A program made the position numbers and the translations under genes. This document shows positions 5,455 through 58,995 of a DNA stretch of 64,000 nucleotides, one piece after another (position 1 is the stretch's first letter; every line of letters starts with the position of its first letter). The stretch is from Lama glama (taxonomy: Eukaryota). The stretch spans positions 78,246,001 through 78,310,000 of the forward strand of contig CM052816.1 in the NCBI GenBank assembly GCA_028534125.1. The letters are read 5' to 3'. The notes beneath the pieces were generated by a model. The model made no database searches and was not told the origin of the DNA. It was given only the letters and a program-made list of their open reading frames with translations.

Positions 5455-7145
5455 CTTTGATGAAAACTTACAAGCTCATAGATCCAAGAAAATGAACCCA
5501 GAACAGGAAAGGCACAAAATCACACCACAGCACAACATAATCAAATTCTCAGCAAACTAGGAATAAAACAACTTCCTCAACCTGATAAAAGTCATCTATG
5601 AAAAATATACAGCTAAAATTACACTTAATAGTGTAAAGGATGTTTCTAGTCAACATAGTATTGGAGGTCCTGATCAGTGCAATTTGGCAAACAAAGGAAA
5701 TGTAAGACACACTGGAAAAGCAGAATTAAATGAGTGCTTATTCACAGACAGCACACTTACGTAGAAAATCCTATAGAATATACAGAGAATACTAGAACTA
5801 TTAACAAACTGCTAGAATTATTAATAGAACTATAAACTAATGATAGCAAGGTCACAGGATATAAGGTCAATGTATAAAAATCAATTGCATTTCTATATAC
5901 TAGCAACAAGTAAAAAATTTTTAAATATTAATTTAAATAGCACAAAAACCATAAAATAAGATTAATTTTTAACAATATAAGAACTGTATATTGGAAACTA
6001 CAAAAGTGCTGGAAGAAATTAAAGAAACCCTAGATGAATAATATATAATACTCATGCATTGGAAGATTAAACTTAGTAACCATGAATTTTCACCAAATCA
6101 ATAATGTAGATTTGATGCATTCCCAGCCAGATTTCCAGCAGACTTTCTTGTAGAAATTGACAAGCTGATTCTAAAATTTATATAGGAATGAGAAGTCCTA
6201 GAATAGCCAAAAGTTTTGAAAAAATAAAACTGGAGATTATATTCTACTGATTTCAAGATTTTGTTATAAAGCTACAGAAATTGTGATAATGTGGCATTGG
6301 TGTAAGAAACGTCAGTGGAACAAAATAAAAGTACAGCAGTAGATGCATACACATGGACAACGGATTTTCAACAAAGGTGCCAAGGTAGTTCAACGGGAGA
6401 AAGAACAGTCTTTTCAATAAGTGGTTCTGGAACCACTGAATGTCTACATGGAAATAAACCCCCAACCCTTACCTCATAAAATACACAATCACATCACAGA
6501 CCTAAATATAAGAAGTAAAATTATGAAACTTCTGGAAAAATACTGGAGAAAAAATTTCGTGACCTTAGATTAAGCAGATTTCTTAAGAAAAACCTTAAGA
6601 AGAAAAAGTTGATAAATTGAACTCCATCAAGATTTAAGACATTTGCTCTTAGACACATTAAGAAAACAAAAAACTAGGCCACAGACAAAATATTTACAAA
6701 CCAGAGATCTTATAAAAGATTTGACCTAAATATATGGAATACTCTTACAATGCAATAAGACAACTCCCCCCACATCTCCAGGAGATAAATAAGGGCAGAA
6801 AAGATTTGGATATTTTACTCAAGAAGGTATTTGAGGGGGAGGGTATAGTTCAGTGGTAGGGTGCATGCCTAGCATGCACAAGGTCCTGTGTTCAATCACC
6901 AGTACCATAAAATTAAAAATAAATAAATAAACCTAATTACCTCCTCACCAACAAAAATAAATCTATAAATAAAATTTTTTTAAAAAGATATTTGAATGGC
7001 AAATAAACCCATGAAAAGAAGCTCAACATTGTTACAAGGGAAATGCAAATTAAAACTATGATAAGATGCCACTACACATCTACAAGAATGGCTAAAATTT
7101 AAGACTGGCCATTGGCAAGGATGCAGAGTACCTGGAACTTGTACA
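5455..7145 (+). mobile_element. Old L1M ORF2/3' fragments, interrupted by a SINE
   Basis: gaaattgacaagctgattctaaaatt, caaaggtgccaag, gaaatgcaaattaaaac; no intact ORF. Confidence 0.8.
6835..6981 (+). mobile_element. tRNA-derived camelid-type (Vic-1-like) SINE
   Basis: gggggagggtatagttcagtggtag..gttcaatc head, acctaattacctcc body, A tail; imperfect TSD aagaaggtatttga / aaaaagatatttga. Confidence 0.85.
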
Positions 7146-11909: not shown

Positions 11910-12355
11910 CTTGTGATAAAGATGGCTATTTGTCCACTGAAAGCATTCTTTCAGTCTTTCTAGGTATCTTGCTAATCTACATTTCCCAGCTTGCCTTGTG
12001 GTTAGGTGTGGCCAGTTGTCTGAGTTCTCTCCAAAATAACACAAGCAGAAATATTGTGTACTACTTCTGGGCCTAGGTCTCCAGACTGTGGGTATGCTTT
12101 CTCTTTTACCCTTCCCTTTGGCTGGAATCCACTGGGACTCAGTCTTTATTATGCAACGAGACACTGGAGAATTACAGAGCGAGGATCTCAAAGAAGCCTG
12201 GATCTCTGAATAACTGTGTGGAGCAGAGCTACTCTGCCAAACTGAATCACTCACCTTGTAATAGTTACACAAGAGAGAAATAATTGTCTATATTCTCCAG
12301 GCTACTTATTTATAGTAGAGGCTTTTTGATATGGCAGCCTAGTCTTACCCTAGAT
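11910..12355. mobile_element. MLT1-type MaLR LTR
   Basis: ctacatttcccagcttgccttgtggttaggtgtggcc..aagcctggatctctgaataactgtgtggagcagag. Confidence 0.65.
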
Positions 12356-12879
12356 AACTCACCACTCCATCGTATAATAGACCTCAGCTTATAATTCACC
12401 TTGTGGAGGGAGAATGGCCTCAGACACACAGTTCTCCTGCCTTGTACCCTTTGTTTGCTAAGGTAAACCAAGCTGATAGCTTTCCATTTGAGAGAGCTGA
12501 GCCATTTACTCAGCGGAACACACCTAGCCTAGCCAAAGGTAACAAGCCCAAGTGCTTTCAAATACCAGGCCAGTGAGTTAGTGACATCAGCGAGTGAAGA
12601 GAAGGGCGGGTAGGGAAACGGAGAGCATGCCCCTGCTTAAGGTATGCAAATTTAAGCTACAGAAAACTGCCTTCTCAAGCCAAACATAGCCCTAGAGCTG
12701 CATTTTCCTGTACCCTGTTCCCCCTCGGTCGGCAGGACCAGCATAAGGGCGGTAACAGTATAGTAAATTAACAAGTTACTAGGAATTCAGAGTACTGACA
12801 CGCTTTCCTTAGCGCCTTAAGTTGCCCACCTGATCTGTGCAGAGCAGTGTACTACTCCTTTATTCTCGGGTCTATGGAG

Positions 12880-13880
12880 GTCTCCGCTAGGGTGGCGACA
12901 TCCCGTGATTTACCTATTGGTATTAAAAACGGTTTCCTGGAAAGCCCTGCACAACGCCTGGGCACTCAAAGGCGTGTGTCTGAGGAGCGCACCGGGGAGG
13001 TGAAGATAGAAAGACCTGCCGAAGCCGAGGAGACCGCGAGAGGGAGAAGGGGCAGCCGAGCGGAGGAGACGGAGGCGAGGGAGGCGGTGCGGAGGCGCTG
13101 GACGGCGGGAGGAAGAGGGCGGGAACCCGGAGGAGCCCTGGAGAAGAGGAGGGAGGAGCATCTGGAGCCTCCAGCCTGCGCTCCCGGCTGGCTCGGAGCA
13201 GGCGCACTGGCGGCGCTCGCCCGCGTCCCCTTCCCCGCCCTCGGCCGTCGCCAGGGCGCAGGCTCGCGTCAGGGCTGGCGGCTGGGCCCGCGGCCGCCGC
13301 CCTCCCGCCTCGCCGCCGCGCTGCCCGCTTCCCCCTCGGCCTCGCCGCGCCTTCCCGCCCCGGACGCACTGGGCCCTGGCGGAGGTAACTGCCCGCAGAT
13401 TCCTGCCCCTCACGGCCCCAGCCTCTTCCCCACGGCGTCGGGCCCGGCGTCCTCGGGCTCCTCGGGCTCCTCGTTCCCCCTCACACCCTCCTGTCGTGCA
13501 CGCCCGCGACCTCCCCCAGCCCCGCCATCCCCCGCCGCACCCAGGCGCCTCGTCCTGTCCCTCTGCCCGGTCCCCGGCTTCCCCCGTGTCGTCCTCCCGC
13601 CGCAGCATCGTCAGGCCGACGGAGGTGCGTGGGCTCCGAGCGGCCCAGGTTGCCGGGAGCTGGCTGGGGACGAAGTCTGGCTCGGCCCAGACCTCAGCCC
13701 CAGACCGGGTCCTCCAGCTCCAGTGCCGTCCCCGGTGGGCACCGCGGTGGCACCTCGCGGAGTAGAGGGCCGCCCTGCCGCGCAGGATCCGGTTGGAGTC
13801 CCCTGGGGATGACTTCTGCGACGTGCTCTTAGGGTAACTCCTGTGTTGACCTTAGTGGGTGATAAATTAAACGCGCAGGA
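12880..13880. promoter_or_regulatory. CPLANE1: CpG island / CPLANE1 promoter with non-coding exon 1
   Basis: Abrupt GC- and CpG-rich tract ~3 kb upstream of the first coding exon; GC boxes; candidate donors GAG|gtaact (13385) and GAG|gtgcgt (13625). Confidence 0.85.
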
Positions 13881-14218
13881 ATGGACGCCAATTTTTAGAC
13901 TTGTCTGTTGTGGAAACCACAGAACAACTTGGATTATTCTCTTGAAATTGCTTTTGCCAGTGTGTTTTAAATAAAGGTGCTTTTAAGGGATGGACTTTAC
14001 ATATTTCTCCTCTCGCATATTTTGTGAGTGTGATAGAGTTTATTTTTATATCTTTCTTCCATTAACTAATTTCACTTGTTTCGTGATGTTTATTAGTATC
14101 TATTCGTATGTAGCATTAGTGTTTTGAGTGCCAGTTCAGTATGTAGCAAAAATAACCTCTGCTACATTACAGGAGGTGATTTTTTTTAACTACTATTTTA
14201 TTTTATTTATTTTTTTAA

Positions 14219-14718
14219 NNNNNNNNNNNNNNNNNNNNNNNNNNNNNNNNNNNNNNNNNNNNNNNNNNNNNNNNNNNNNNNNNNNNNNNNNNNNNNNNNN
14301 NNNNNNNNNNNNNNNNNNNNNNNNNNNNNNNNNNNNNNNNNNNNNNNNNNNNNNNNNNNNNNNNNNNNNNNNNNNNNNNNNNNNNNNNNNNNNNNNNNNN
14401 NNNNNNNNNNNNNNNNNNNNNNNNNNNNNNNNNNNNNNNNNNNNNNNNNNNNNNNNNNNNNNNNNNNNNNNNNNNNNNNNNNNNNNNNNNNNNNNNNNNN
14501 NNNNNNNNNNNNNNNNNNNNNNNNNNNNNNNNNNNNNNNNNNNNNNNNNNNNNNNNNNNNNNNNNNNNNNNNNNNNNNNNNNNNNNNNNNNNNNNNNNNN
14601 NNNNNNNNNNNNNNNNNNNNNNNNNNNNNNNNNNNNNNNNNNNNNNNNNNNNNNNNNNNNNNNNNNNNNNNNNNNNNNNNNNNNNNNNNNNNNNNNNNNN
14701 NNNNNNNNNNNNNNNNNN
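14219..14718. other. Assembly gap (500 N)
   Basis: Run of n characters. Confidence 1.
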
Positions 14719-16090: not shown

Positions 16091-16860
16091 TTGCTTGGCT
16101 CCAACCTGCTGTGCCAGGCTCTCCCACTGCATGAACATCCTCCCAGTCACCCAGGAATGGACCATTCACCCCATATTATGCTCCCCTCACCCTAGTTGGG
16201 CTCTGACAGACTGTTTTTAGCCTCTACTGCAGCTATCCCCACACCCAGCATGAGGACTTGCTGGGCATCTTTACTTGATATTATCTCAGGGCTTCATTTT
16301 TATGTTGGTTAGTTTGGACTTTCTTACAGCTCGGTGGCTTAGCCTTGGATGATCTAGCATTGGAAAATACATAACATCACTTCCATTTTAGTCTTGGTCA
16401 GAGGAGTCAAAATCCCACCCAGTTTTTAGGGATGATGCATAAACCAGAGCTCTCAATGAGAAAAATGTGAGTCATGGTGTAAGAAGAGCATATGAGATGG
16501 GAGATATTCTTGTGGCCCTTTTTGGAAAATACAACTTACCTCACTGAGAAAATCACATCACATAGAAACTATATTGGCAAGATGTTGTCCTAGTTCATAT
16601 TTATCTTCATGGCCTGAGAAATTACTTGTCAAAGAAGCAAATTCATTTTGCCTGGCTATTCAAGATATGAGATACTGAATACATTGTCAACATTTTACCT
16701 TAAAAATAGAGTTAACTTGAGCTGATGAAAAGTAATTTACCAAAACTTTATGAAAATTTTAAACTAAAATCCTCAGTATTATGGGATGTTATCTTTTGTT
16801 GTTGTTTTTTACAGCATCTTGTGGCTTTTTACTTAATTGGTCATTGATATCTTAACAAGC

Positions 16861-16941
16861 ATGGAGATACGATTAGAAGTTTTGACATCAACAAGTATCA
16901 AGCAGAAAAAACCCTGGCCCCGAGTCTCCTGGCTGGGACAG
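16861..16941 (+). CDS. CPLANE1: CPLANE1 exon 2 coding part (MEIRLEVLTSTSIKQKKPWPRVSWLGQ); exon starts 16815
   Basis: acag acceptor ending 16814, in-frame upstream TAA 16834-16836, ATG 16861, CAG|gtaggt; matches recalled N-terminus MEIRLEIL. Confidence 0.95.
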
Positions 16942-17100
16942 GTAGGTTTTTCTTTTCTCAAATAGTATCAGTTGTAATATATATTAAATGTATGCTTTGC
17001 CTATAAGATTGAAGAAAGTTCTATGACCTTTAAAAATAAAATACGTGTAGAAGGATCACCTGGACACTGAACAGGGTTTTGTGTATTTGTGTAGTAAGAA

Positions 17101-17583
17101 GCTGGCAGAGATAGGAAGGGGGCATCAGTCTTTCTGTGATGTATCAGAGTTGTCACCACTCTCATCACTCTCTTGCTCCTTTTCTCCATCACTTGCTTCA
17201 TCGTTTCACTGTCCTCTGTTGCTTTGCTCTTGGAGACTGGGATAATGTGTCATCCTCACTCTCCTCTGCTCTGCTCTCCTGGAAATTCTGGGACGTAATC
17301 TCTTAGCTTGTAAAGTCCCAGTTTTTGAGATGGCACAGCCAGAACGCCTCTCTGCAGTTGTTGAGGATGAGCGTGGCTTTCACTCTGCAAACTAACAACT
17401 ACAGAGTCTTTTTGAGCAGAGACGCATGCTTGGTGAGTCTTGTGTCCTGGTGAATCTTGGAATGACCACACAGGTGATGAAGCAGCCTCATGTCCAACTG
17501 GAAGTTTTCCAGTAAGCTCAGAGCATTTTCCTGATATTTTCTAAAACTAAGTCTAGGAGTAGCATGACACTGCTTCAGAAATG
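17101..17583 (-). pseudogene. FANCD2: Processed (intronless) FANCD2 3' retrocopy with start of 3' UTR, disabled
   Basis: Minus strand translates [115 protein letters not shown]; collinear with recalled FANCD2 C-terminus; stops at 17399-17401 and 17303-17305, plus frameshifts. Confidence 0.93.
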
Positions 17584-17961
17584 AAAAGTCGTATCTATTT
17601 TAGCCTAAGTAAATAATTTAAAAACCTGCCCATACTGCTGTTCAGATTGATGAGATTAAACAGCAGAAGACTCAGATTAGGCTACCAGAATTGGAAGATA
17701 GTCCTATAATTCTAAACTTCAAAGAAATTTCAGTGTAACCATTAATTCATCCTACCTAGTAATTCTACAAGAGATACTTTAAGATAGGATGAAAAATCTT
17801 CAGGTTCCATAATCAACCTTATTGTTCACTCTGTGATGTGTAGCATATAGAAATAAATAATCTTTCTTAAATGTCACTGTATTTTCCTTTCTAGGATAGT
17901 TTATTTAGGTAAGCAGTTGAATGAATTTCTGACACCTCTTGTATCTTATTTCTTCTTTTAG

Positions 17962-18097
17962 GAAAATGAAGCTGTTTTTCTTTTGGATAATAAATTCATA
18001 AATGAAATTAATTTGCTATCAGGAAGGACAAAGAAGAAAATTCCTAGTCTTCAGCCTTTGTTGAAGGATGTTATAGTCCTAACAACATCCAATAATG
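17962..18097 (+). CDS. CPLANE1: CPLANE1 exon 3
   Basis: ttttag / G|gttaag; ENEAVFLLDNKFINEINLLSG; 136 nt. Confidence 0.93.
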
Positions 18098-18212
18098 GTT
18101 AAGTAATACTGATCTTTTCAAAAGTCTAGGTAAACTGTATTTTTTAATAACTTGGGATTAATATTAAGGGAAATATTAGATTGTAAGTATTGCATTTTCT
18201 TTTTGGAAACAG

Positions 18213-18332
18213 ATGCCTGGCTGGCTGGGGTACTTGCTACAGGGGAGCTTTTCCTTTGGAACAAAGATCAAGATTGTTTGAAAACTATACAAGCAACTGA
18301 AAAGCCTAAGGAAATGATTAAAGCTGCAGTAG
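18213..18332 (+). CDS. CPLANE1: CPLANE1 exon 4
   Basis: aacag / G|gtggga; DAWLAGVLATGELFLWNKDQD; 120 nt. Confidence 0.93.
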
Positions 18333-18727
18333 GTGGGAGTTTTTTGATTTGTTTAAACTGGTTTGACTTGATATTTAGGAGGAATAGAGGATAAAACATT
18401 TTCCTATTACTGTCTTAAAAATACATCTTTGTGTAAATATATATATATTTCCTTATATATGTAAATATTTCTTTGGTGGTGTTCATTTGTAAGAGATATT
18501 CATCTTGAAGAAAGTCTGGCATGCCTAACATACCTATGGTAGCAATGGGTTCCTAGTATCACATAATAAGTACATGTTAAAAGTTAGTATTATTGTACTT
18601 CTGATTAGTCTTACATCCTAAATGGAAACATCGTTTAGGTTCCTTATTGTCAGAATAGATAAAATTAGTACTTTTTGGCAGAATTCAGGCTTCAGAGGTT
18701 TCAGTACTTTTTTTTTTTTTTTTTTAG

Positions 18728-18960
18728 CAAGCTCTTTGAGACTGTACTTGTATGTATCTGACAATGGGAAAAGAGTGCTGCTTGTAACTCCTTCTGGATG
18801 GATGTTTCTTTGGGAACATTTGGAATTCAAGAATACCTTATCTTCTAAAAGCCCTACATCGGTGGGCCAGTGGTCCCAGATTATGCCTGAAGAAGCAGTG
18901 CCTTTGCCTTCCCCTGAAGATAAAGAAGCTGTAGTACATGCTGTTTTTATAAAAAATGAG
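18728..18960 (+). CDS. CPLANE1: CPLANE1 exon 5
   Basis: poly-T ag / GAG|gtaaaa; SSLRLYLYVS..AVFIKNE; 233 nt. Confidence 0.93.
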
Positions 18961-19596
18961 GTAAAATCCAAATCAGACAGGGTGTTATAGAAGTTGAGAT
19001 CTCGGACTCAAAGAGCAGACACCATCTGGGAAGCTGTTGAACAGAGTGTATAATGACATAGCTATGTATTTCCAGTCATCATTCATTGTCACAGTAATTG
19101 TAAAATTATCATGGAAAAAAATTTTTATATTTCTTGGTCACGTTTTGAAAGATGTTTACTAAAAATGGTTTGAACTTGGAGCTTCCTTTGTCTTTCCCTA
19201 GTTTTACTTTTCCCTAGTTTTGGAATATAACTGGTTTTGTGATCAAAAAAGCTAGAATTGTTGATATTAAGTAAGCCATTTATTCCCAGGAAATAACACA
19301 TTCATTAACTAAAAAAACATTTAAAATAGCTCTTTGTATGCATTTTATTACCCAGTCCACTATTGTGAGAAATTGCATTTTGAAGTTTTATTGTTTTCCT
19401 ATACCTCCCTCAACCCCCACCAATAGTGCCCCATTTTAAATAATATGTAACTATAAAAGAGAAAAATAAATATGTAAGCATACATAAATAAATGGCAGTG
19501 TTTTCTTAAGAGAGTAAAGTTCACCTTGATTTCCCATTTGAGACACGCCTCTGGCTCAGAAATAAATTACTTAGTCTTTAGCTTAATTAAAAAATT

Positions 19597-19737
19597 TTTT
19601 TTGGGTGTTGGGGGAGGTAATTAGGTTTATTCATTTATTTATTTATTTACTTACTTATTTTTTAACGGGGGTACTGGGGATTGAACACAGGACCTCGTGC
19701 ATGCTAAGCACACGCTCTACACTAAGCTATATCCTCC
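19597..19737 (-). mobile_element. Camelid-type tRNA SINE
   Basis: ggaggtaattaggtttat..gtactggggattgaac..ctaagctatatcctcc. Confidence 0.85.
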
Positions 19738-20427: not shown

Positions 20428-20595
20428 GGGGGAAGGTACAGTTCAAGTGGTAGAGCCCATGCTTAGCATGTGTGAAGTCCTGGGTTCAATCCCCGGTACC
20501 TCCTCTAAAAATAAATAAATAGACCTAATTACGTCCTCCCACAAAAATAAATAAATAAATAAACAACCAAATAAATAAATAAATAAAACTTCTAA
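20428..20595 (+). mobile_element. Camelid-type tRNA SINE
   Basis: Head, body, (AAAT)n tail; TSD aaaagcatacaatgact (20411-20427) / aaaagcatataaagact (20596-20612). Confidence 0.88.
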
Positions 20596-21770: not shown

Positions 21771-22919
21771 GTAAGAATTCTTTTGTATTTCTAGTGTTTT
21801 TCTTTTCTTTTCTAATAGTCTAATAAGTTTAAGGCTCTGATAATACAGTAAGTGTCTAAGTAGGTATTTAGATAGATAATGCAACTTTTAGCATTTGTGC
21901 TTGATAGATTCTAATAATTGCTTTATATAAGGAAGGCCTTAAATGCCTCAGGAAAGGATCTGATAGGGTAGAAGTCGATGAACATATTTTCTTTTTTGTT
22001 TGTTTCTGTGTTGCCTCAGGAGGAGTAGAATCGTGATTGGGTAGAGAAATACTGGGCTTAGTTAGAGAGACTGAACGGAAAAACCTGGATTGGGAAGACC
22101 ATTATATACTCAGGTTGAGGTGTTAATAGCCTTTTAAACAAAAGTAGCATTCTCTGCGTAAGATAGCAACATAGCAACATAAATGGTGGTTTTGGATGGC
22201 AGATGGACTTACGCAGGATTGTAGAGCAGGAATATTTCCTTTTGGAGTCTCCAGATTTCCTTTTCTGGATACTTCTGTGTGTTCTCTGAATATCCAAAGT
22301 TTTTAGATTCATCCAGGCTGCCTCTTTATTTTCTTTCTCTCCCCTAAAGTTCCTTTCTAGAAGTATTACTGGTCTCAGTTCAGTGGTTTCTTTGACTTAG
22401 GGTGGTCATCATTTACAAGAGGAGGAGCTACTTTTTATCCCCATGAAAGAAACATTATTAATATTATTAGATACTTAAGGAGTAGTAATGGCTTTGGGAG
22501 GAGGGAGTCTGCTACTGAGTGGAGCTCTGGCAGGCTGCAGAGAAGACAGGCATGGTATTCACTTCAGATCTACCAGTAGATCTTAGCTGTGGACACCACT
22601 AGAATTAAAAGTTGTTCTAATTATGATCTAAGGGACTAAAAAGCTCTGCTTTTTTAGGTAGTATTTCCATCTTATGGTTTGCTTATGAATCTAGGTAAAT
22701 TTCTAACTGGTATGTTGTGTAGAGTAGATGTTTATGCACAAACGCCTTTTTTCTTACCTTTTTTCTGGGAAGTAGAATACACAAAATGTATGTGACATTT
22801 GCCTACAATTCATTCTTTTGCCATTATATTTTGAAGTGTCTCACCCCTCCTTGGCCATTATAAACTGTCAAAGACATTGTAGAGAGTCCTTTCTAAACAT
22901 ATTGTCTTGCTTTTTCTAG

Positions 22920-33018: not shown

Positions 33019-33143
33019 GGGGGGAGGGTATAGCTCAGTGGTAGAATGTGTACCTAGCATGTGTGAAGTCTGGGGTTCAATCCCCAGTACCTCCATTAAA
33101 TAAATAAATAAACCTAATTACCCCTACCCAGGGGGAGAAAAGA
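33019..33143 (+). mobile_element. Camelid-type tRNA SINE
   Basis: ggggagggtatagctcagtggtaga..gttcaatccccagtacc; imperfect TSD agaaatagccatattc / agaaatggccctactc. Confidence 0.85.
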
Positions 33144-33341: not shown

Positions 33342-33501
33342 TTTGTATGTATGTATGTATGTATGTATGTATGTATTTATTTATTTAATTTTTAGAGGGA
33401 GGCAATTAGGTTTATTTATTTTTGGAGGCGTTACTGGGGATTAAACCCAGGACCTTGTACATGCTAAGCATGCACTTGACCACTTGAGCTATACCTTTCC
33501 C
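33342..33501 (-). mobile_element. Camelid-type tRNA SINE with (TATG)n tail microsatellite
   Basis: Reverse head ending gagctatacctttccc; tail degenerated to gtat repeats. Confidence 0.85.
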
Positions 33502-34153
33502 TCAAGTTTTGATTCTCAAATAGGGATGACACATGTCATCGTGTATGCCTGCTTAGTTTATGTCAGAATCACCCTAGAAATCCTGATGTGACTCTCTCCC
33601 TCCCCTGCCTTCTCCCTCTACCCCATGCATTCCTTTTGTGCCTACCTCCCAAAAGAATCTTACAGGAATGAGATACTCTTACTAATGGGAGTATATCATA
33701 ATTCCCAGACCTAATGGTACAGAAAAAAGCATTAAGAATCACTCTTCTGGTGCTTTTCAGATTATCTTTGGAGTAAACCCTGCCTCCTTTCTTTAAAGAG
33801 AGAAAATTAGAAAGGGGAGAAAGAAGAGAAATTAAATAATGAAATGCTAAGCTTGTAAGGCTGGATTGTTTTATAAATCTGTCCATGTTTTTAGATAAAA
33901 CTAGTAATTTGAAGTCATAAGGAGTTCCTGAGTGTATGTGCTCATAATTGTGAGCTAATTATTTTTGTTCTACTGTCTTCAAGAAGTATAGATACCTATT
34001 ATAAATATAGCTCGTGCAGGCCATGGGTGCTCAACTCAGAAGAAAGTTTTAATTACAATTTTGTTCTTGAATACTGTTGGGAACTTAAATATTGCCCCAT
34101 TTGGATAGTTTGATCAGAATCTCCTTTGGTCATTTGCTGTATGTACCCTGCAG

Positions 34154-41325: not shown

Positions 41326-41447
41326 GAGGGAGGGTATAGCTCAGTGGTAGAACGCCTGCCTAGCATGCATGAGGTCCTGGTTCATTCTCCAGTACCTCCA
41401 TTAAAAAATAGGTAAACCTAATTATCTCCCCCAAAACAAAACAAAAC
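41326..41447 (+). mobile_element. Camelid-type tRNA SINE
   Basis: Perfect 15-bp TSD aagaaaaagaaaata (41311-41325 / 41448-41462). Confidence 0.9.
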
Positions 41448-45241: not shown

Positions 45242-45332
45242 TTTTCTCCTTTTAACAAAGGCACTGGGGATGGAACCCAGGACCTTGTGCACACCAGGCG
45301 TGTGCTCTACCGCTGAGCTGTACCTCCAATCC
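45242..45332 (-). mobile_element. Short tRNA-derived SINE variant (head only)
   Basis: gcactggggatggaacccaggacc..ctctaccgctgagctgtacc; TSD ttcctgtatt on both sides. Confidence 0.75.
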
Positions 45333-54539: not shown

Positions 54540-57500
54540 CTGTTTTATTGAGGTATAATTGACAAATTTGCTTTTATTGCCTTTGCTTTTGGTGTCAAAT
54601 TCCAAATATTGTTGTGAAGGAGCCTAACTGCCTGTCTTTTCTGCTAGGAGGTTTATGGTTTTGGGTCTTATTTTTGAGTTTTTAATCCATTTTAAGTTAA
54701 TTTTTGTGTATGTTGTAAGGCAGTGATCCAGTTTCATTTTTTGACATGTGACTGTCAAGTTTTCCCAGCACCATTTACTGAAGAGACTAACCTTTCTCCA
54801 TTGAATAGAGTCTTGACTCCTTTTTCAAACTAATTAACCATAAGTGTGTGTGTTTGTTTCTGGGCTGTCTGTTCTGTTCCATCGATCTCTGTGTTGGGTT
54901 TTAGGCCAGCACTATACTGCTTTGATTACTGTAGCTTATATAGTGTGTATAAGTAGTATACAGTATATGTAATTTACAAGTACTGTACATATAGTACTTA
55001 CAAGTATAAATATATCTAAGCATATAATAATAGTAATATACAGATTACAGTAACTGTGCTCTACAGTACAGTTGACCCTTGAACAATGTGAGTTTGAACC
55101 ACTCAGGTCTACTTATATGCAGATTGTTTTCAGTAAATACAGTACTACACTATCCGTGGTTGGTTGAATCTAAGGATGCAGAACTGTGGATATGGAGGGC
55201 TGACTGTGGACTTGAGCATCTGAGGACTTTGGTATCCAGGAGGTCCTGGAACCAATCCTTGGCTGATACTGAGGAATGACTAATCTGAGATCAGGAAATG
55301 TGATGCCTCCAGCTTTGTTCTTTTTTCTCAAGACTGCTTTGACTATTTGGGGTCTTTTGTGGTTCTATACAAATTTTAGGGCTGTTTTCTCTATTTCTGT
55401 GAAAAATGCCATTGGAATTTTGATAGGGATTGCATTGAATCTGTAGATTGCTTTGGGTAATATGGACTTTTTTAACAATATTAACTCTTCTAATCCATGA
55501 GCATGAAATATCTTTGCATATATTTGTGTCTTCAATTTCTTTCCTCAGTGTCTTACAGTTTTCAGTGTACAGATCTTTTACCTCCCTGCTTAAATTTATT
55601 CATAGATATTTTATTCTTTTGATATAATTATGAATGGGATTGTTTTCTTAATTTCTTTCTTATAATTCATTGTATATGCATAGAAATGCAACTGATTTTT
55701 GTATATTGATTTTTATATCCTGCAAACTTTCTAAATTCATTTATTCCATTTTGGGTGGAATCTTTTGGGTTTTCTATATATAGTATCATGTTATCTGCAA
55801 ATAGAGATAGTTTTACTTCTTCCTTTCCAGTTTGGATTCCTTTTGTTTATTTTTCTTGCCTGATTGTCTGACTAGCCCTTCCAGTACTCTGTTGAATAAA
55901 AGTGATGAGATTGGACATCCTTGTCTTATTCCTGACCTTAGAGGAAAAACTTTAGATTTCCATTGTTGACTATGATCTTAGCTGTGGGCTTGTCATATAT
56001 GGCCTTAAGTATATTGAGGTATGTTTCCTGTATGATCTGTTGTTGAAAGTGGGGTATTGAAGTCCTCTACTATTACTGTTACGCTATTTCTCTATTCATA
56101 TCTATTAATATTTGCTTTAAATATTTAGGTGCTTCCATGTTGGCTACATAAATATTAACTAATGTTATATATTCTTGATAAATTGACCCCTTTATCATAT
56201 AGTTAAGTTGTTTGTCTCTTGTTATAGTCTTTGGCTTAAAATCTGTTTTGTCTAAGTATAGCTACCCCTGTTTTCCTTTAGTTTCTGCTTGCATGGAGTA
56301 TTTTTCCATCTCTTCAGTTTCAGAATATGTATGTCCTTAAAGCTGAAGTGAGCCTCTTGTAGGCAGTGTAAAATTTGGTCTTGTATTTTTATCTGCTCAA
56401 CTACTCCATGTCTTCTGATGGGAGAGTTTAGTCCATCTACCTTTAAGCCAATTATCGATAAGTAAAATGGCTAAATATTATTGTTTTGTTCATTGTTTGC
56501 TGGTTGTTCTATAGTTCCTTGTTCTTTTCTTTGAGATTTGATTATTTTCCGTAGTGTTATGCTTGGATTCCTGTTTAAAAATCTTTTGTGTGTCTACTAT
56601 AGGTTTTTGCTTTGTGGTTACTGTGAGGCTTATACTAGAACATGTTATATTTGTAATAATCTATTTTAAGTTGATAACTTAACTTTGAATGCATACAAAA
56701 GGCTTGCACATTTACACTACTCCTTCCCCATGTTTTGTGTTTTTGATATCACAATTTACATCTTTTTGAATTGTGTATCCATTAATAAGTTATGGTATAG
56801 TTGTTTTAATACTTTTGTCACTTAGTGTTCATACTAACTTCATAGAGTTATGGATGTTTTACCCACTATCATTACAATACTGGAGTATTCTGAGTTTAGC
56901 TGTGTGTTTAACTTTACTAATGAGTTTAATACGTTCATATGTTTTCCTGGTACTAATTAGCATCTATTTATTTTAGCTTGAACTCTTTTTAACCTTTCTT
57001 GTAAGGCTGGTCTGGTGGTCATGAACTCCTTCAGCTTTTACTTGTCTAGAGAACTCTATCTTTTCTTCAATTCTGAAGAACAGCTTTGCTGGGCAGAGTA
57101 TTCTTGGTTGGCAGTTTTTTTCTTTCAGCCCTCTTCATGTATCATGCCACTCCCTTCTGGCCTACAGAGTTTCTGCTGAAAAATCTACTGATAACCTCAT
57201 GGGAATTTCCTTATATGTAACAAATTGCTTTTCTTTTGCTGCTTTTAAGATTCTCCCCTTGTCTTTAACTTTTAACAATTCAGTTACAGTGTTTCTCAGT
57301 GTAGGTCTCTTTGTATTTATCTTATTTAAAAGAGAATCCTCTGGGCTTCTTGGATCTGATGTCTGTTTATTTCCCCAGGTTTGGGAAGTTTTCAGCCATT
57401 ATTTCTTTGCATAAGCTTTCTGTTTCTTTCTCTCTTCCCTTTCTAGGTCCTCCATAATGCATATATTGGTCTCAAGTTATTTTCATCTTTCATTCTTCCC

Positions 57501-58995
57501 TTTTGCTTCTATGGGTGAATTCCACTGCCCTGTCTTTGAGTTCTCTGATCCTTTTTTCTGCTTGATCTAGTCTGCTGTTGAACCCATCCATTAATTTTTT
57601 AGTTCAGCTCTTGTATTCTTCAGGTCTGTAAGTTCTATTTGGCACTTTTTTGTATTTCTGTCTCTTCACTGAAATTCTCACTTAGTTAATGCATTGTTTC
57701 CCTGGTATCAGTGACTGTTATTTTGAATCCCAACAGTTAAATCACTTACCTGTTTCATTAAGTTCTTCTTCTGGAGAGTTATATTTTCATTTGTTTGGAA
57801 CATATTCCTCTGTTTCTTCATTTTCCTTGAATCTCTGTGTTGGTTTCTATGCATTAGATAAAATAGCCACATTGCCCAGTCTAAACAGAGTGGCCTTGTA
57901 TAGGAGATAAACCTCATCAATCAGCCTGGCCTGAGCTTTTGATGGTCTCTGAAATCTTTGTGAATATCTAAGCCTACTTCTTTGTTCTCAGTGACTCCCA
58001 GTGGTTGAGGTTATGCCAAGACCCATCAGTGTCCCAAAGGTGTAGATCACATTTGGCATCTAAATGCAGGCTGATTGACAGCTGAACCCTCAGGCAACAT
58101 GTGATGAAGTATGTAGTTAAGCCCCTTTTGGGGAGAAACTAGGAGATGGGTGTTTTTGTCTACTCCCTGTGCACTGGGCCCGGGTGTATAGCCAAAAGGT
58201 GGGTATTCCTCCACCCATTAAGAACTGCTTCTTTGTTTGCTACAGTCCTGTATGCCTTGTGAATATAAGCCCTATTGACTATGAGAGACATGTAGTCCAG
58301 AACCTGTCCCTCAGTCAGCAGCTGCAAAAACTAGGGCACCAGATATGTGTCCAAACTTCTTCCAGGGAGGTACTGGCAACTTGGAGCAGGCTAGATGGAG
58401 AAGGTGGGGGAGGTGTCCATTAACTCCCCTGGTCTCTGTGGAGGACTGTAGCCTAGATGTGTGTTCAGGCACTGGACCCTCAGGCAGCAGCTTTCAGAGT
58501 GTACAGATGGACTCCTTCCAGGGGAAGACTGGAAGATAGGTGCTTGTGCCTGCCCCTCTGTGCTAAGCCCTGTGGGGATAGCTGCGGGGCGTGCTCACAT
58601 ATTTGTTAATAACGGCTTCTTTGTTTGCTATGGTCTTTGGAGTCTCATGGATGCTAGCCTGTTTGGCTTTCAGAGCTAGGTGTTTTGCAGGCCTGTCCCT
58701 CAAGTAGGAGTCTCAAAAGTTGGGGCAATATATATGGTGTCCAAATCCTTTGCTTTTCAGAAGCTGGGAGTTGGGAATTCCCTCCTGCTTGTAGGGTACT
58801 ATTTCCATGGTTTGGGTTTATGGTCAGATTGCGTCTCAACCTGAGTGTTTTTTCATTCACTTAATGTGTAGGAGTCACTCAGCAAGTTTCTGGATTCCTT
58901 TCAGCAGTAATTGCTCTGTGTGGAGTTGCATGTTCAGTGTGTCTGTGGGAGGAGAGGAGTTCAGGAGCCTCCTGTGCTGCCATCTTGGTCGACCC
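54540..58995 (-). mobile_element. Large antisense L1 with 5' UTR and decayed ORF1/ORF2, internally deleted
   Basis: L1 start gctgccatcttgg near 58990; ORF2 motifs gatagggattgcattgaatctgtagattgctttggg; 3' tail tttattgaggtataattgaca. Confidence 0.85.
55069..55282 (+). mobile_element. Tigger2a-like element inserted in the L1
   Basis: ta|cagttgacccttgaacaa..ggaaccaatcc..gatactgaggaatgact. Confidence 0.8.

What the first reader, a model, noticed from the sequence alone, without database searches (positions are those of the whole stretch)
17101..17583. Hidden FANCD2 processed retrocopy, antisense in CPLANE1 intron 2
Seen: minus-strand translation gives ~140 collinear residues including [32 protein letters not shown] and [10 protein letters not shown], with two premature stops and 1-nt indels, so the ORF track misses it. 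Known: this is the FANCD2 C-terminus, and the span crosses about four FANCD2 exon junctions (from recall) with no intron. Inference: a 5'-truncated L1-mediated retrocopy about 160 nt from the donor of the first coding exon. The human FANCD2 pseudogenes I recall are different loci, so this may be lineage-specific and unannotated.
Basis: partly seen in the sequence, partly recalled or inferred. Interest (0 to 1): 0.7.

Follow-up and report, generated by a model that had tools for sequence, protein, structure and literature searches.

The report
Old dead FANCD2 retrocopy in CPLANE1
A broken, intron-less copy of the tail end of the DNA-repair gene FANCD2 was pasted backwards into an intron of the cilia gene CPLANE1 tens of millions of years ago in an ancestor of camels and llamas; it is real but an ordinary genomic fossil.

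Summary
Confirmed. Minus strand 17584-17143 matches FANCD2 residues 1304-1451 collinearly (PDB E 2e-23, Pfam PF14631), with two stops and four 1-nt frameshifts. It crosses four parental exon junctions, inferred from exon-skipping and read-through gene models, each with a 0-nt gap. The 5' end falls inside an exon. It lies antisense in the 1020-nt intron after the first coding exon of CPLANE1, in what is most likely a New World camelid. It decays neutrally: 19 of 86 invariant columns changed, against 0-1 in orthologues. New here: it shares 0 of 10 camelid-derived residues or indels, so it is older than about 43-51 Ma and dates from near the artiodactyl root. 'Camelid-specific' is therefore unproven; pigs, ruminants or whales may share it. 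No target-site duplication or poly(A) tail was found, so L1 insertion is inferred. No unusual cryptic exon. Verdict: ordinary 5'-truncated processed pseudogene.

The parts
17143..17584 (-). FANCD2 coding-derived segment, residues 1304-1451 (human/hippo numbering), last part of exon 40 to end of exon 44, intron-less, with 2 stops and 4 (probably 6) 1-nt indels
17530..17531 (-). Spliced parental junction R1321|E1322 (exon 40/41), 0-nt gap
   Evidence: junction inferred from 7 gene models joining upstream sequence to residue 1322 and 2 skipping 1322-1346; gap
17455..17456 (-). Spliced parental junction K1346|I1347 (exon 41/42), 0-nt gap
   Evidence: P0167, P0193 and the Camelus ferus model P0189 resume at residue 1347; gap
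17308..17309 (-). Spliced parental junction Q1395|G1396 (exon 42/43), 0-nt gap; lies in the locally disturbed stretch 17300-17317
   Evidence: P0038, P0039, P0041 diverge right after Q1395; gap
17213..17214 (-). Spliced last junction E1427|D1428 (exon 43/44): the copy came from the isoform with the last intron spliced out
   Evidence: 10 distinct tails diverge after E1427; PMC5410239 passages; gap
17399..17401 (-). Premature stop at E1365
17303..17305 (-). Second in-frame stop at E1397, probably from a compensating indel pair
17101..17142 (-). Probable 3' UTR remnant; the codon after the last aligned residue is not a stop
   Evidence: GC 0.52 against 0.30 in 16943-17100; read-through; likeness to FANCD2 UTR recalled, not tested
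16861..16941 (+). CPLANE1 first coding exon (coding part), donor at 16942
   Evidence: tblastn of CPLANE1 proteins, residues 1-27
16942..17961 (+). Host intron (1020 nt); 'intron 2' assumes one upstream non-coding exon in the CpG island near 13 kb (human numbering, recalled)
17962..18097 (+). Next CPLANE1 coding exon, joins in frame to the first

Best explanation
A dead, 5'-truncated processed pseudogene. Shown: the DNA is an intron-less copy of the last five exons of FANCD2, lacking the first 1303 codons, lying antisense in a CPLANE1 intron, and decaying without protein-level constraint. Inferred: in the germ line of an early artiodactyl (or an early member of the camel line), L1 ORF2p reverse-transcribed a spliced FANCD2 mRNA from its 3' end into a nick in this intron and stopped after roughly 0.5 kb. 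The copy had no start codon or promoter and was dead on arrival. Antisense orientation spared the host the parent's poly(A) signal, so it drifted to fixation. About 0.08-0.10 substitutions per site have since erased the poly(A) tail and target-site duplication. It is transcribed only passively, as part of the CPLANE1 pre-mRNA intron, and is spliced out.
For: Identity and collinearity. 0-nt gaps at 4 of 4 junctions defined by gene-model isoforms among 181 FANCD2 hits. 5' end at residue 1304, 7 codons into exon 40, which starts at 1297 (c.3888+2 donor of exon 39, PMC3527584 passage); tblastn of 9 full-length FANCD2 proteins finds no upstream FANCD2 piece in the window. Neutral decay: 19 of 86 invariant columns changed, 13 of 62 variable ones (Fisher p 1.0), against 0-1 of 86-87 in 7 of the 37 orthologues checked; dN 0.10 +/- 0.024 at invariant codons, 0.082 +/- 0.016 overall. 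Age: non-camelid state at 10 of 10 camelid-derived sites; identity 0.80 to beaked whale and 0.79 to hippo, 0.76 to alpaca. Real and fixed: 14 of 24 listed runs, from 8 studies and 5 organism labels, hold 0.94-0.97 of the words of 16800-19000 (one may be the assembly's source). No better cryptic exon than background (114 of 200 intronic windows score as high).
Against: No L1 hallmark was recovered: best target-site duplication candidate is matched or beaten by 84 of 150 controls; no AATAAA/ATTAAA on the copy's strand in 16943-17143; the A-rich patch at 17075-17094 (11 of 20) equals background. Only about 40 nt of probable UTR follow the coding part, which a plain copy from the distal poly(A) site does not explain without a later deletion or internal priming. 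Junctions rest on automated gene models, not on parental DNA. The protein tree does not place the copy (long branch at the midpoint root, backbone unresolved, bootstrap not converged). One site (column 49, R) agrees with non-laurasiatherians, hippo and sea lion rather than most artiodactyls, which could mean an older origin. Neither RNA reads nor an empty site were examined.
Confidence: 0.88

Rival explanations
1. Same processed origin, but not a clean poly(A)-primed L1 insertion: the cDNA was primed internally, captured at a double-strand break, or inserted by twin priming with the rest of the 3' UTR inverted on the plus strand beyond 17585.
For: No poly(A), no poly(A) signal, no target-site duplication, and a very short probable UTR. 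AATAAA/ATTAAA occur on the plus strand at 17655 and 17852.
Against: At 0.08-0.10 substitutions per site plus indels these hallmarks are expected to decay (inference). The copy is anchored at the mRNA's 3' end, as poly(A) priming predicts. 17585-17962 has intron-like GC (0.31) and no A-run follows the plus-strand hexamers.
Confidence: 0.2
2. The antisense copy was co-opted: its purine-rich acidic-tail codons read as a pyrimidine tract on the CPLANE1 strand and supply a cryptic or poison exon that tunes CPLANE1 levels.
For: This route is described: pyrimidine tracts from antisense oligopurine codons (PMC2584115, passages). A pyrimidine-rich tract lies near 17160-17235 and a donor-like site at 17433 (score 4.4, inside the range of proxy real donors).
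Against: Best acceptor inside the copy scores 1.2 against 9.3 for the true acceptor; no acceptor in the copy exceeds 3; 114 of 200 random intronic windows hold an equal or better pair (crude scorer with recalled weights).
Confidence: 0.04
3. Secondary copy: an older FANCD2 retrocopy elsewhere was later moved here (transduction or DNA-level copy), so the sequence age is not the insertion age.
For: Would explain the missing tail and flanks, and the ancestral residues, together.
Against: Needs a second locus for which there is no evidence; a single old insertion explains the same data. The whole genome was not available.
Confidence: 0.04
4. DNA-level (unprocessed or segmental) duplication of FANCD2, as recalled for the human FANCD2P1/P2.
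For: FANCD2 has such partial copies in human (PMC4657327, PMC3527584 passages).
Against: 0-nt gaps at 4 of 4 junctions; five exons fit in 442 nt.
Confidence: 0.01
5. Assembly artefact or contaminating mRNA read.
For: The assembly has a 500-N gap 2.4 kb upstream.
Against: 14 runs from 8 studies hold at least 0.94 of the words of the 2.2-kb stretch; the copy is decayed and less like camelid FANCD2 than like whale or hippo FANCD2.
Confidence: 0.005

Closest known systems
Mammalian processed pseudogenes (retrocopies), 5'-truncated L1 by-products; bioRxiv 10.64898/2026.06.26.734816 (passages and section 14 read), RetrogeneDB PMC4069623 (main text read)
   Same: Intron-less, anchored at the mRNA 3' end, keeps the terminal exon junctions, disabled, decays neutrally. 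It meets the preprint's stated filters of at least 120 bp and one of three terminal junctions.
   Different: Covers only 148 of 1451 residues (10%), so it fails RetrogeneDB's 50% coverage filter; poly(A) and target-site duplication are no longer detectable.
Human FANCD2P1 and FANCD2P2 (PMC4657327, PMC3527584, PMC3374947; passages)
   Same: Same parent gene; partial non-functional copies.
   Different: FANCD2-P2 interferes with calls in exons 22-26 (PMC3527584), the middle of the gene, whereas this copy holds exons 40-44. That the human copies are intron-containing and lie on chromosome 3 is recalled, not read.
Antisense intronic retrocopies exonised into host genes (Type Ib; PMC2584115, passages)
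   Same: Antisense in a host intron; parental Glu/Asp/Lys codons give a pyrimidine tract on the host strand.
   Different: No good acceptor and no evidence of inclusion here.

Membership tests
Processed pseudogene (retrocopy) | Homologous to a multi-exon parent gene | tested here: met
   FANCD2 by PDB, Pfam and homologue search
Processed pseudogene (retrocopy) | Parental introns precisely absent | tested here: met
   0-nt gaps at 4 of 4 junctions; junctions inferred from gene-model isoforms, not from parental DNA
Processed pseudogene (retrocopy) | Located away from the parent locus | tested here: met
   Inside a CPLANE1 intron; no other FANCD2 piece in the 64-kb window. The parent's position was not available
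Processed pseudogene (retrocopy) | Coding capacity lost, neutral decay | tested here: met
   2 stops, 4 frameshifts; invariant columns change as often as variable ones
L1 target-primed insertion | 5' truncation with the mRNA 3' end retained | tested here: met
   Begins at residue 1304 inside exon 40 and runs to the last residue
L1 target-primed insertion | Poly(A) tail at the 3' end | tested here: inconclusive
   No tail or signal above background; decay expected at this age; true 3' boundary unknown
L1 target-primed insertion | Target-site duplication and endonuclease site | tested here: inconclusive
   84 of 150 controls score as well; low power without an empty site
Lineage-specific (camelid) insertion | Absent from the orthologous intron of pig, ruminants, whales | not testable with these tools
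   No mammalian genome collection; the metagenome scan returned only 2 distant eukaryote loci. Internal dating allows either answer
Exonised antisense retrocopy (Type Ib) | Competitive splice sites inside the copy | tested here: not met
   Best pair no better than 114 of 200 random intronic windows (crude scorer)
Exonised antisense retrocopy (Type Ib) | Inclusion in spliced host transcripts | not tested
   No reads were laid on the locus; open
Unprocessed FANCD2 duplicate | Retains parental introns | tested here: not met

The most novel reading that the evidence does not exclude
The antisense copy of FANCD2's acidic tail was kept for 45-65 million years because it gives CPLANE1 a weak, stop-containing poison exon (best candidate 17236-17432) or a splicing-modulating pyrimidine tract in its first coding intron, tuning a Joubert-syndrome ciliogenesis gene in camelids or across artiodactyls.
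Probability: 0.03. Interest if true: 0.55.

Novelty: new member of a known kind. Interest (0 to 1): 0.13.

Why it matters
Little in itself: mammals carry thousands of retrocopies (about 8,000 in great apes, 16,000 in sloths; bioRxiv 10.64898/2026.06.26.734816, passage). Two modest uses. First, it is a dated fossil of the FANCD2 C-terminus near the artiodactyl root: it shows that the spliced last-intron isoform was made in the germ line then, and its three-site combination (columns 31, 49, 142) is found among 37 orthologues only in hippo and pika. Second, if it inserted close to the basal artiodactyl split, its presence or absence in pig, ruminants and whales is one retroposon marker for that split. 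At about 10% divergence it is unlikely to confuse FANCD2 read mapping in camelids, unlike the human pseudogenes (inference).

Tried and rejected
Whole-genome search: no genome held, so the parent locus and sister copies were not seen. Repeat search of 16900-18000: 16 direct families and 38 inverted pairs, none bracketing the copy convincingly; formal duplication search at chance level. Poly(A) and signal search negative. Protein tree of 38 rows did not place the copy. Cryptic-exon search at background. Literature searches for the c.-positions and numbering of exons 40-44 found nothing usable. Pfam did not recognise 3 CPLANE1 exon translations; the host was named from homologues. Rfam on 17600-64000 gave only 5 tRNA-like hits. 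Rejected: DNA-level duplication, artefact, and a young camelid insertion (0 of 10 camelid-derived states shared).

Full report
Observation. The minus strand of 17584-17143 encodes the C-terminus of FANCD2. The first open stretch hits human FANCD2 1304-1364 in the PDB (E 2.1e-23; 7 of 7 hits are FANCD2), and both open stretches hit Pfam PF14631. A frameshift-aware alignment spans residues 1304-1451 in one collinear run for each of 6 reference proteins (scores 473-527) against 25-39 for 12 random control windows. It has two in-frame stops and four 1-nt indels. Around 17300-17317 an extra compensating indel pair is more economical than substitutions (3 edits against 5), so the second stop is probably a by-product and there may be six indels. 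tblastn of 9 full-length FANCD2 proteins found no other FANCD2 piece in the window.

Host. The window holds CPLANE1 on the plus strand. The first coding exon is 16861-16941 and joins in frame to 17962-18097 across a 1020-nt GT-AG intron. The name 'intron 2' assumes one non-coding exon in the CpG island near 13 kb (recalled human numbering). Exon cores are 542 of 553 identical to a Camelus ferus model. Alpaca FANCD2 is 1421 of 1449 identical to C. ferus, dromedary 1448 of 1449. The host is therefore most likely a New World camelid (inference across two different proteins). The stretch is no artefact: 14 of 24 listed runs, from 8 studies and 5 coded organism labels, hold 0.94-0.97 of 219 sampled words of 16800-19000 (one may be the assembly's source). 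The copy is about a fifth of that stretch, so most of its words must be present.

Is it processed? Seven models join upstream sequence directly to residue 1322; two skip 1322-1346; a C. ferus model resumes at 1347; three diverge after 1395; ten distinct tails diverge after 1427. PMC3527584 (passages) puts the exon 39 donor at c.3888, so exon 40 starts at residue 1297; that passage is inconsistent in one place about the exon number. The copy has a 0-nt gap at 4 of 4 junctions and starts 7 codons into exon 40. It carries the spliced last exon, the form that PMC5410239 (passages) calls V1. This is a 5'-truncated processed copy. The human pseudogenes are other loci: two are annotated (PMC4657327, passage), and P2 overlaps exons 22-26.

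L1 hallmarks. None was recovered. The best target-site duplication candidate is equalled or beaten by 84 of 150 control windows. There is no poly(A) signal on the copy's strand between the last codon and the host donor. The A-rich patch at 17075-17094 is no richer than background. About 40 nt after the last codon are GC-richer than the flank (0.52 against 0.30) and, from recall only, resemble FANCD2 3' UTR. L1 mediation is thus inferred from the 3'-anchored, 5'-truncated, spliced anatomy and from L1 being the main source of mammalian retrocopies (bioRxiv 10.64898/2026.06.26.734816, passage; 5' truncation in PMC8535693, passage). Internal priming, twin priming, break capture or a later 3' deletion remain open.

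Function. In an alignment with 37 orthologues the copy differs at 19 of 86 invariant columns (stops and breaks counted; 15 if the compensating pair is accepted) and 13 of 62 variable ones (Fisher p 1.0 and 0.67). Seven orthologues checked the same way differ at 0-1. There is no protein-level constraint. On the host strand the acidic-tail codons form a pyrimidine tract, the known route to antisense exonisation (PMC2584115, passages). But the best acceptor in the copy scores 1.2 against 9.3 for the real one, and 114 of 200 random intronic windows hold an equal or better pair (crude scorer, recalled weights). No reads were laid, so use in RNA is untested.

Alpaca and camels share ten derived changes in this part of FANCD2 (nine residues and one deletion; some recur in other mammals). 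The copy has the non-camelid state at 10 of 10 (one read in the frame after a deletion). It is closer to beaked whale (115 of 143) and hippo (113 of 143) than to alpaca (108 of 142). With evenly spread changes, the insertion lies within the first 26-28% of the camelid stem or earlier (95% bound). With crown Artiodactyla at 53-64 Ma (calibration bounds, PMC10728886, passages) and Camelini-Lamini at 16.3 Ma (PMC6899786, passage), that is older than about 43-51 Ma. An upper bound comes from column 142, where the copy has the residue found in all 11 listed artiodactyl rows with a residue there and in only 4 of the other rows. Against it, column 49 has the residue of hippo, sea lion and non-laurasiatherians, which could mean an older origin or one back-mutation. 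Non-synonymous divergence is 0.082-0.101, near the roughly 0.10-0.11 neutral substitutions per site that I recall for the alpaca branch from the artiodactyl root. The tree did not place the copy. My estimate: about 60% early camel line only, about 35% shared with other artiodactyls, about 5% older. 'Lineage-specific' is not established.

Comparison and novelty. It meets the tested features of a processed pseudogene; two L1 hallmarks are inconclusive. It fails the tests for an unprocessed duplicate and, on sequence, for an exonised copy. It would pass the filters of the vertebrate retrocopy survey (section 14) and fail the 50% coverage rule of RetrogeneDB (PMC4069623, main text), which may be why it could be unlisted. 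Searches for it in papers found nothing: (listings and abstract starts seen). Annotation databases and the preprint's supplements were not seen. Earlier notes of this scan hold no FANCD2 retrocopy; other dead intronic retrocopies in camelid genomes were noted and judged ordinary (unchecked AI notes).

Verdict. Real, correctly identified, old and almost certainly inert: a new member of a very common kind. Interest 0.13.

Noticed in passing
window 19666-19736(-), 20432-20505(+), 33024-33095(+), 41330-41400(+), 45256-45327(-); related copies near 6831-6973 and 33350-33505: tRNA-like heads (ARAGORN calls four of them tRNA-Ala AGC; Rfam scores 32-40 bits), 73-85% alike and partly next to TTTA/AAAT/TGTA arrays: most likely copies of a tRNA-derived SINE, not tRNA genes.
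   Followed up: partly
window about 55000-58000, minus strand: Decayed L1: ORF1 domain PF02994 at 57165-57398 (E 4.5e-5; 1 of 48 intronic ORFs with a Pfam hit) and an ORF2-like translation at 55291-55599 (likeness recalled).
   Followed up: partly
window 14219-14718: 500-N assembly gap in the first intron, right after a T-rich run; probably an unresolved repeat.
   Followed up: no
window about 12900-13900: CpG island (121 CpG in 12001-14000), the likely CPLANE1 promoter and non-coding first exon.
   Followed up: no
proteins P0123, P0124: Gorilla 'CPLANE1-like' models begin with an unrelated N-terminus (WDR70-like by my recall) fused to CPLANE1 from the exon at 22903: a partial duplicate or a gene-model fusion.
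   Followed up: no
L001 (853-1719), L002 (3029-3457): Two metagenome contigs of a distant eukaryote hold a short FANCD2-like exon and several tandem partial repeats of it between AT microsatellites.
   Followed up: no
FANCD2 alignment, columns 31, 49, 142: Hippo alone among the artiodactyls listed shares all three residues with the retrocopy, suggesting that it keeps the ancestral artiodactyl states and that column 49 changed repeatedly.
   Followed up: partly
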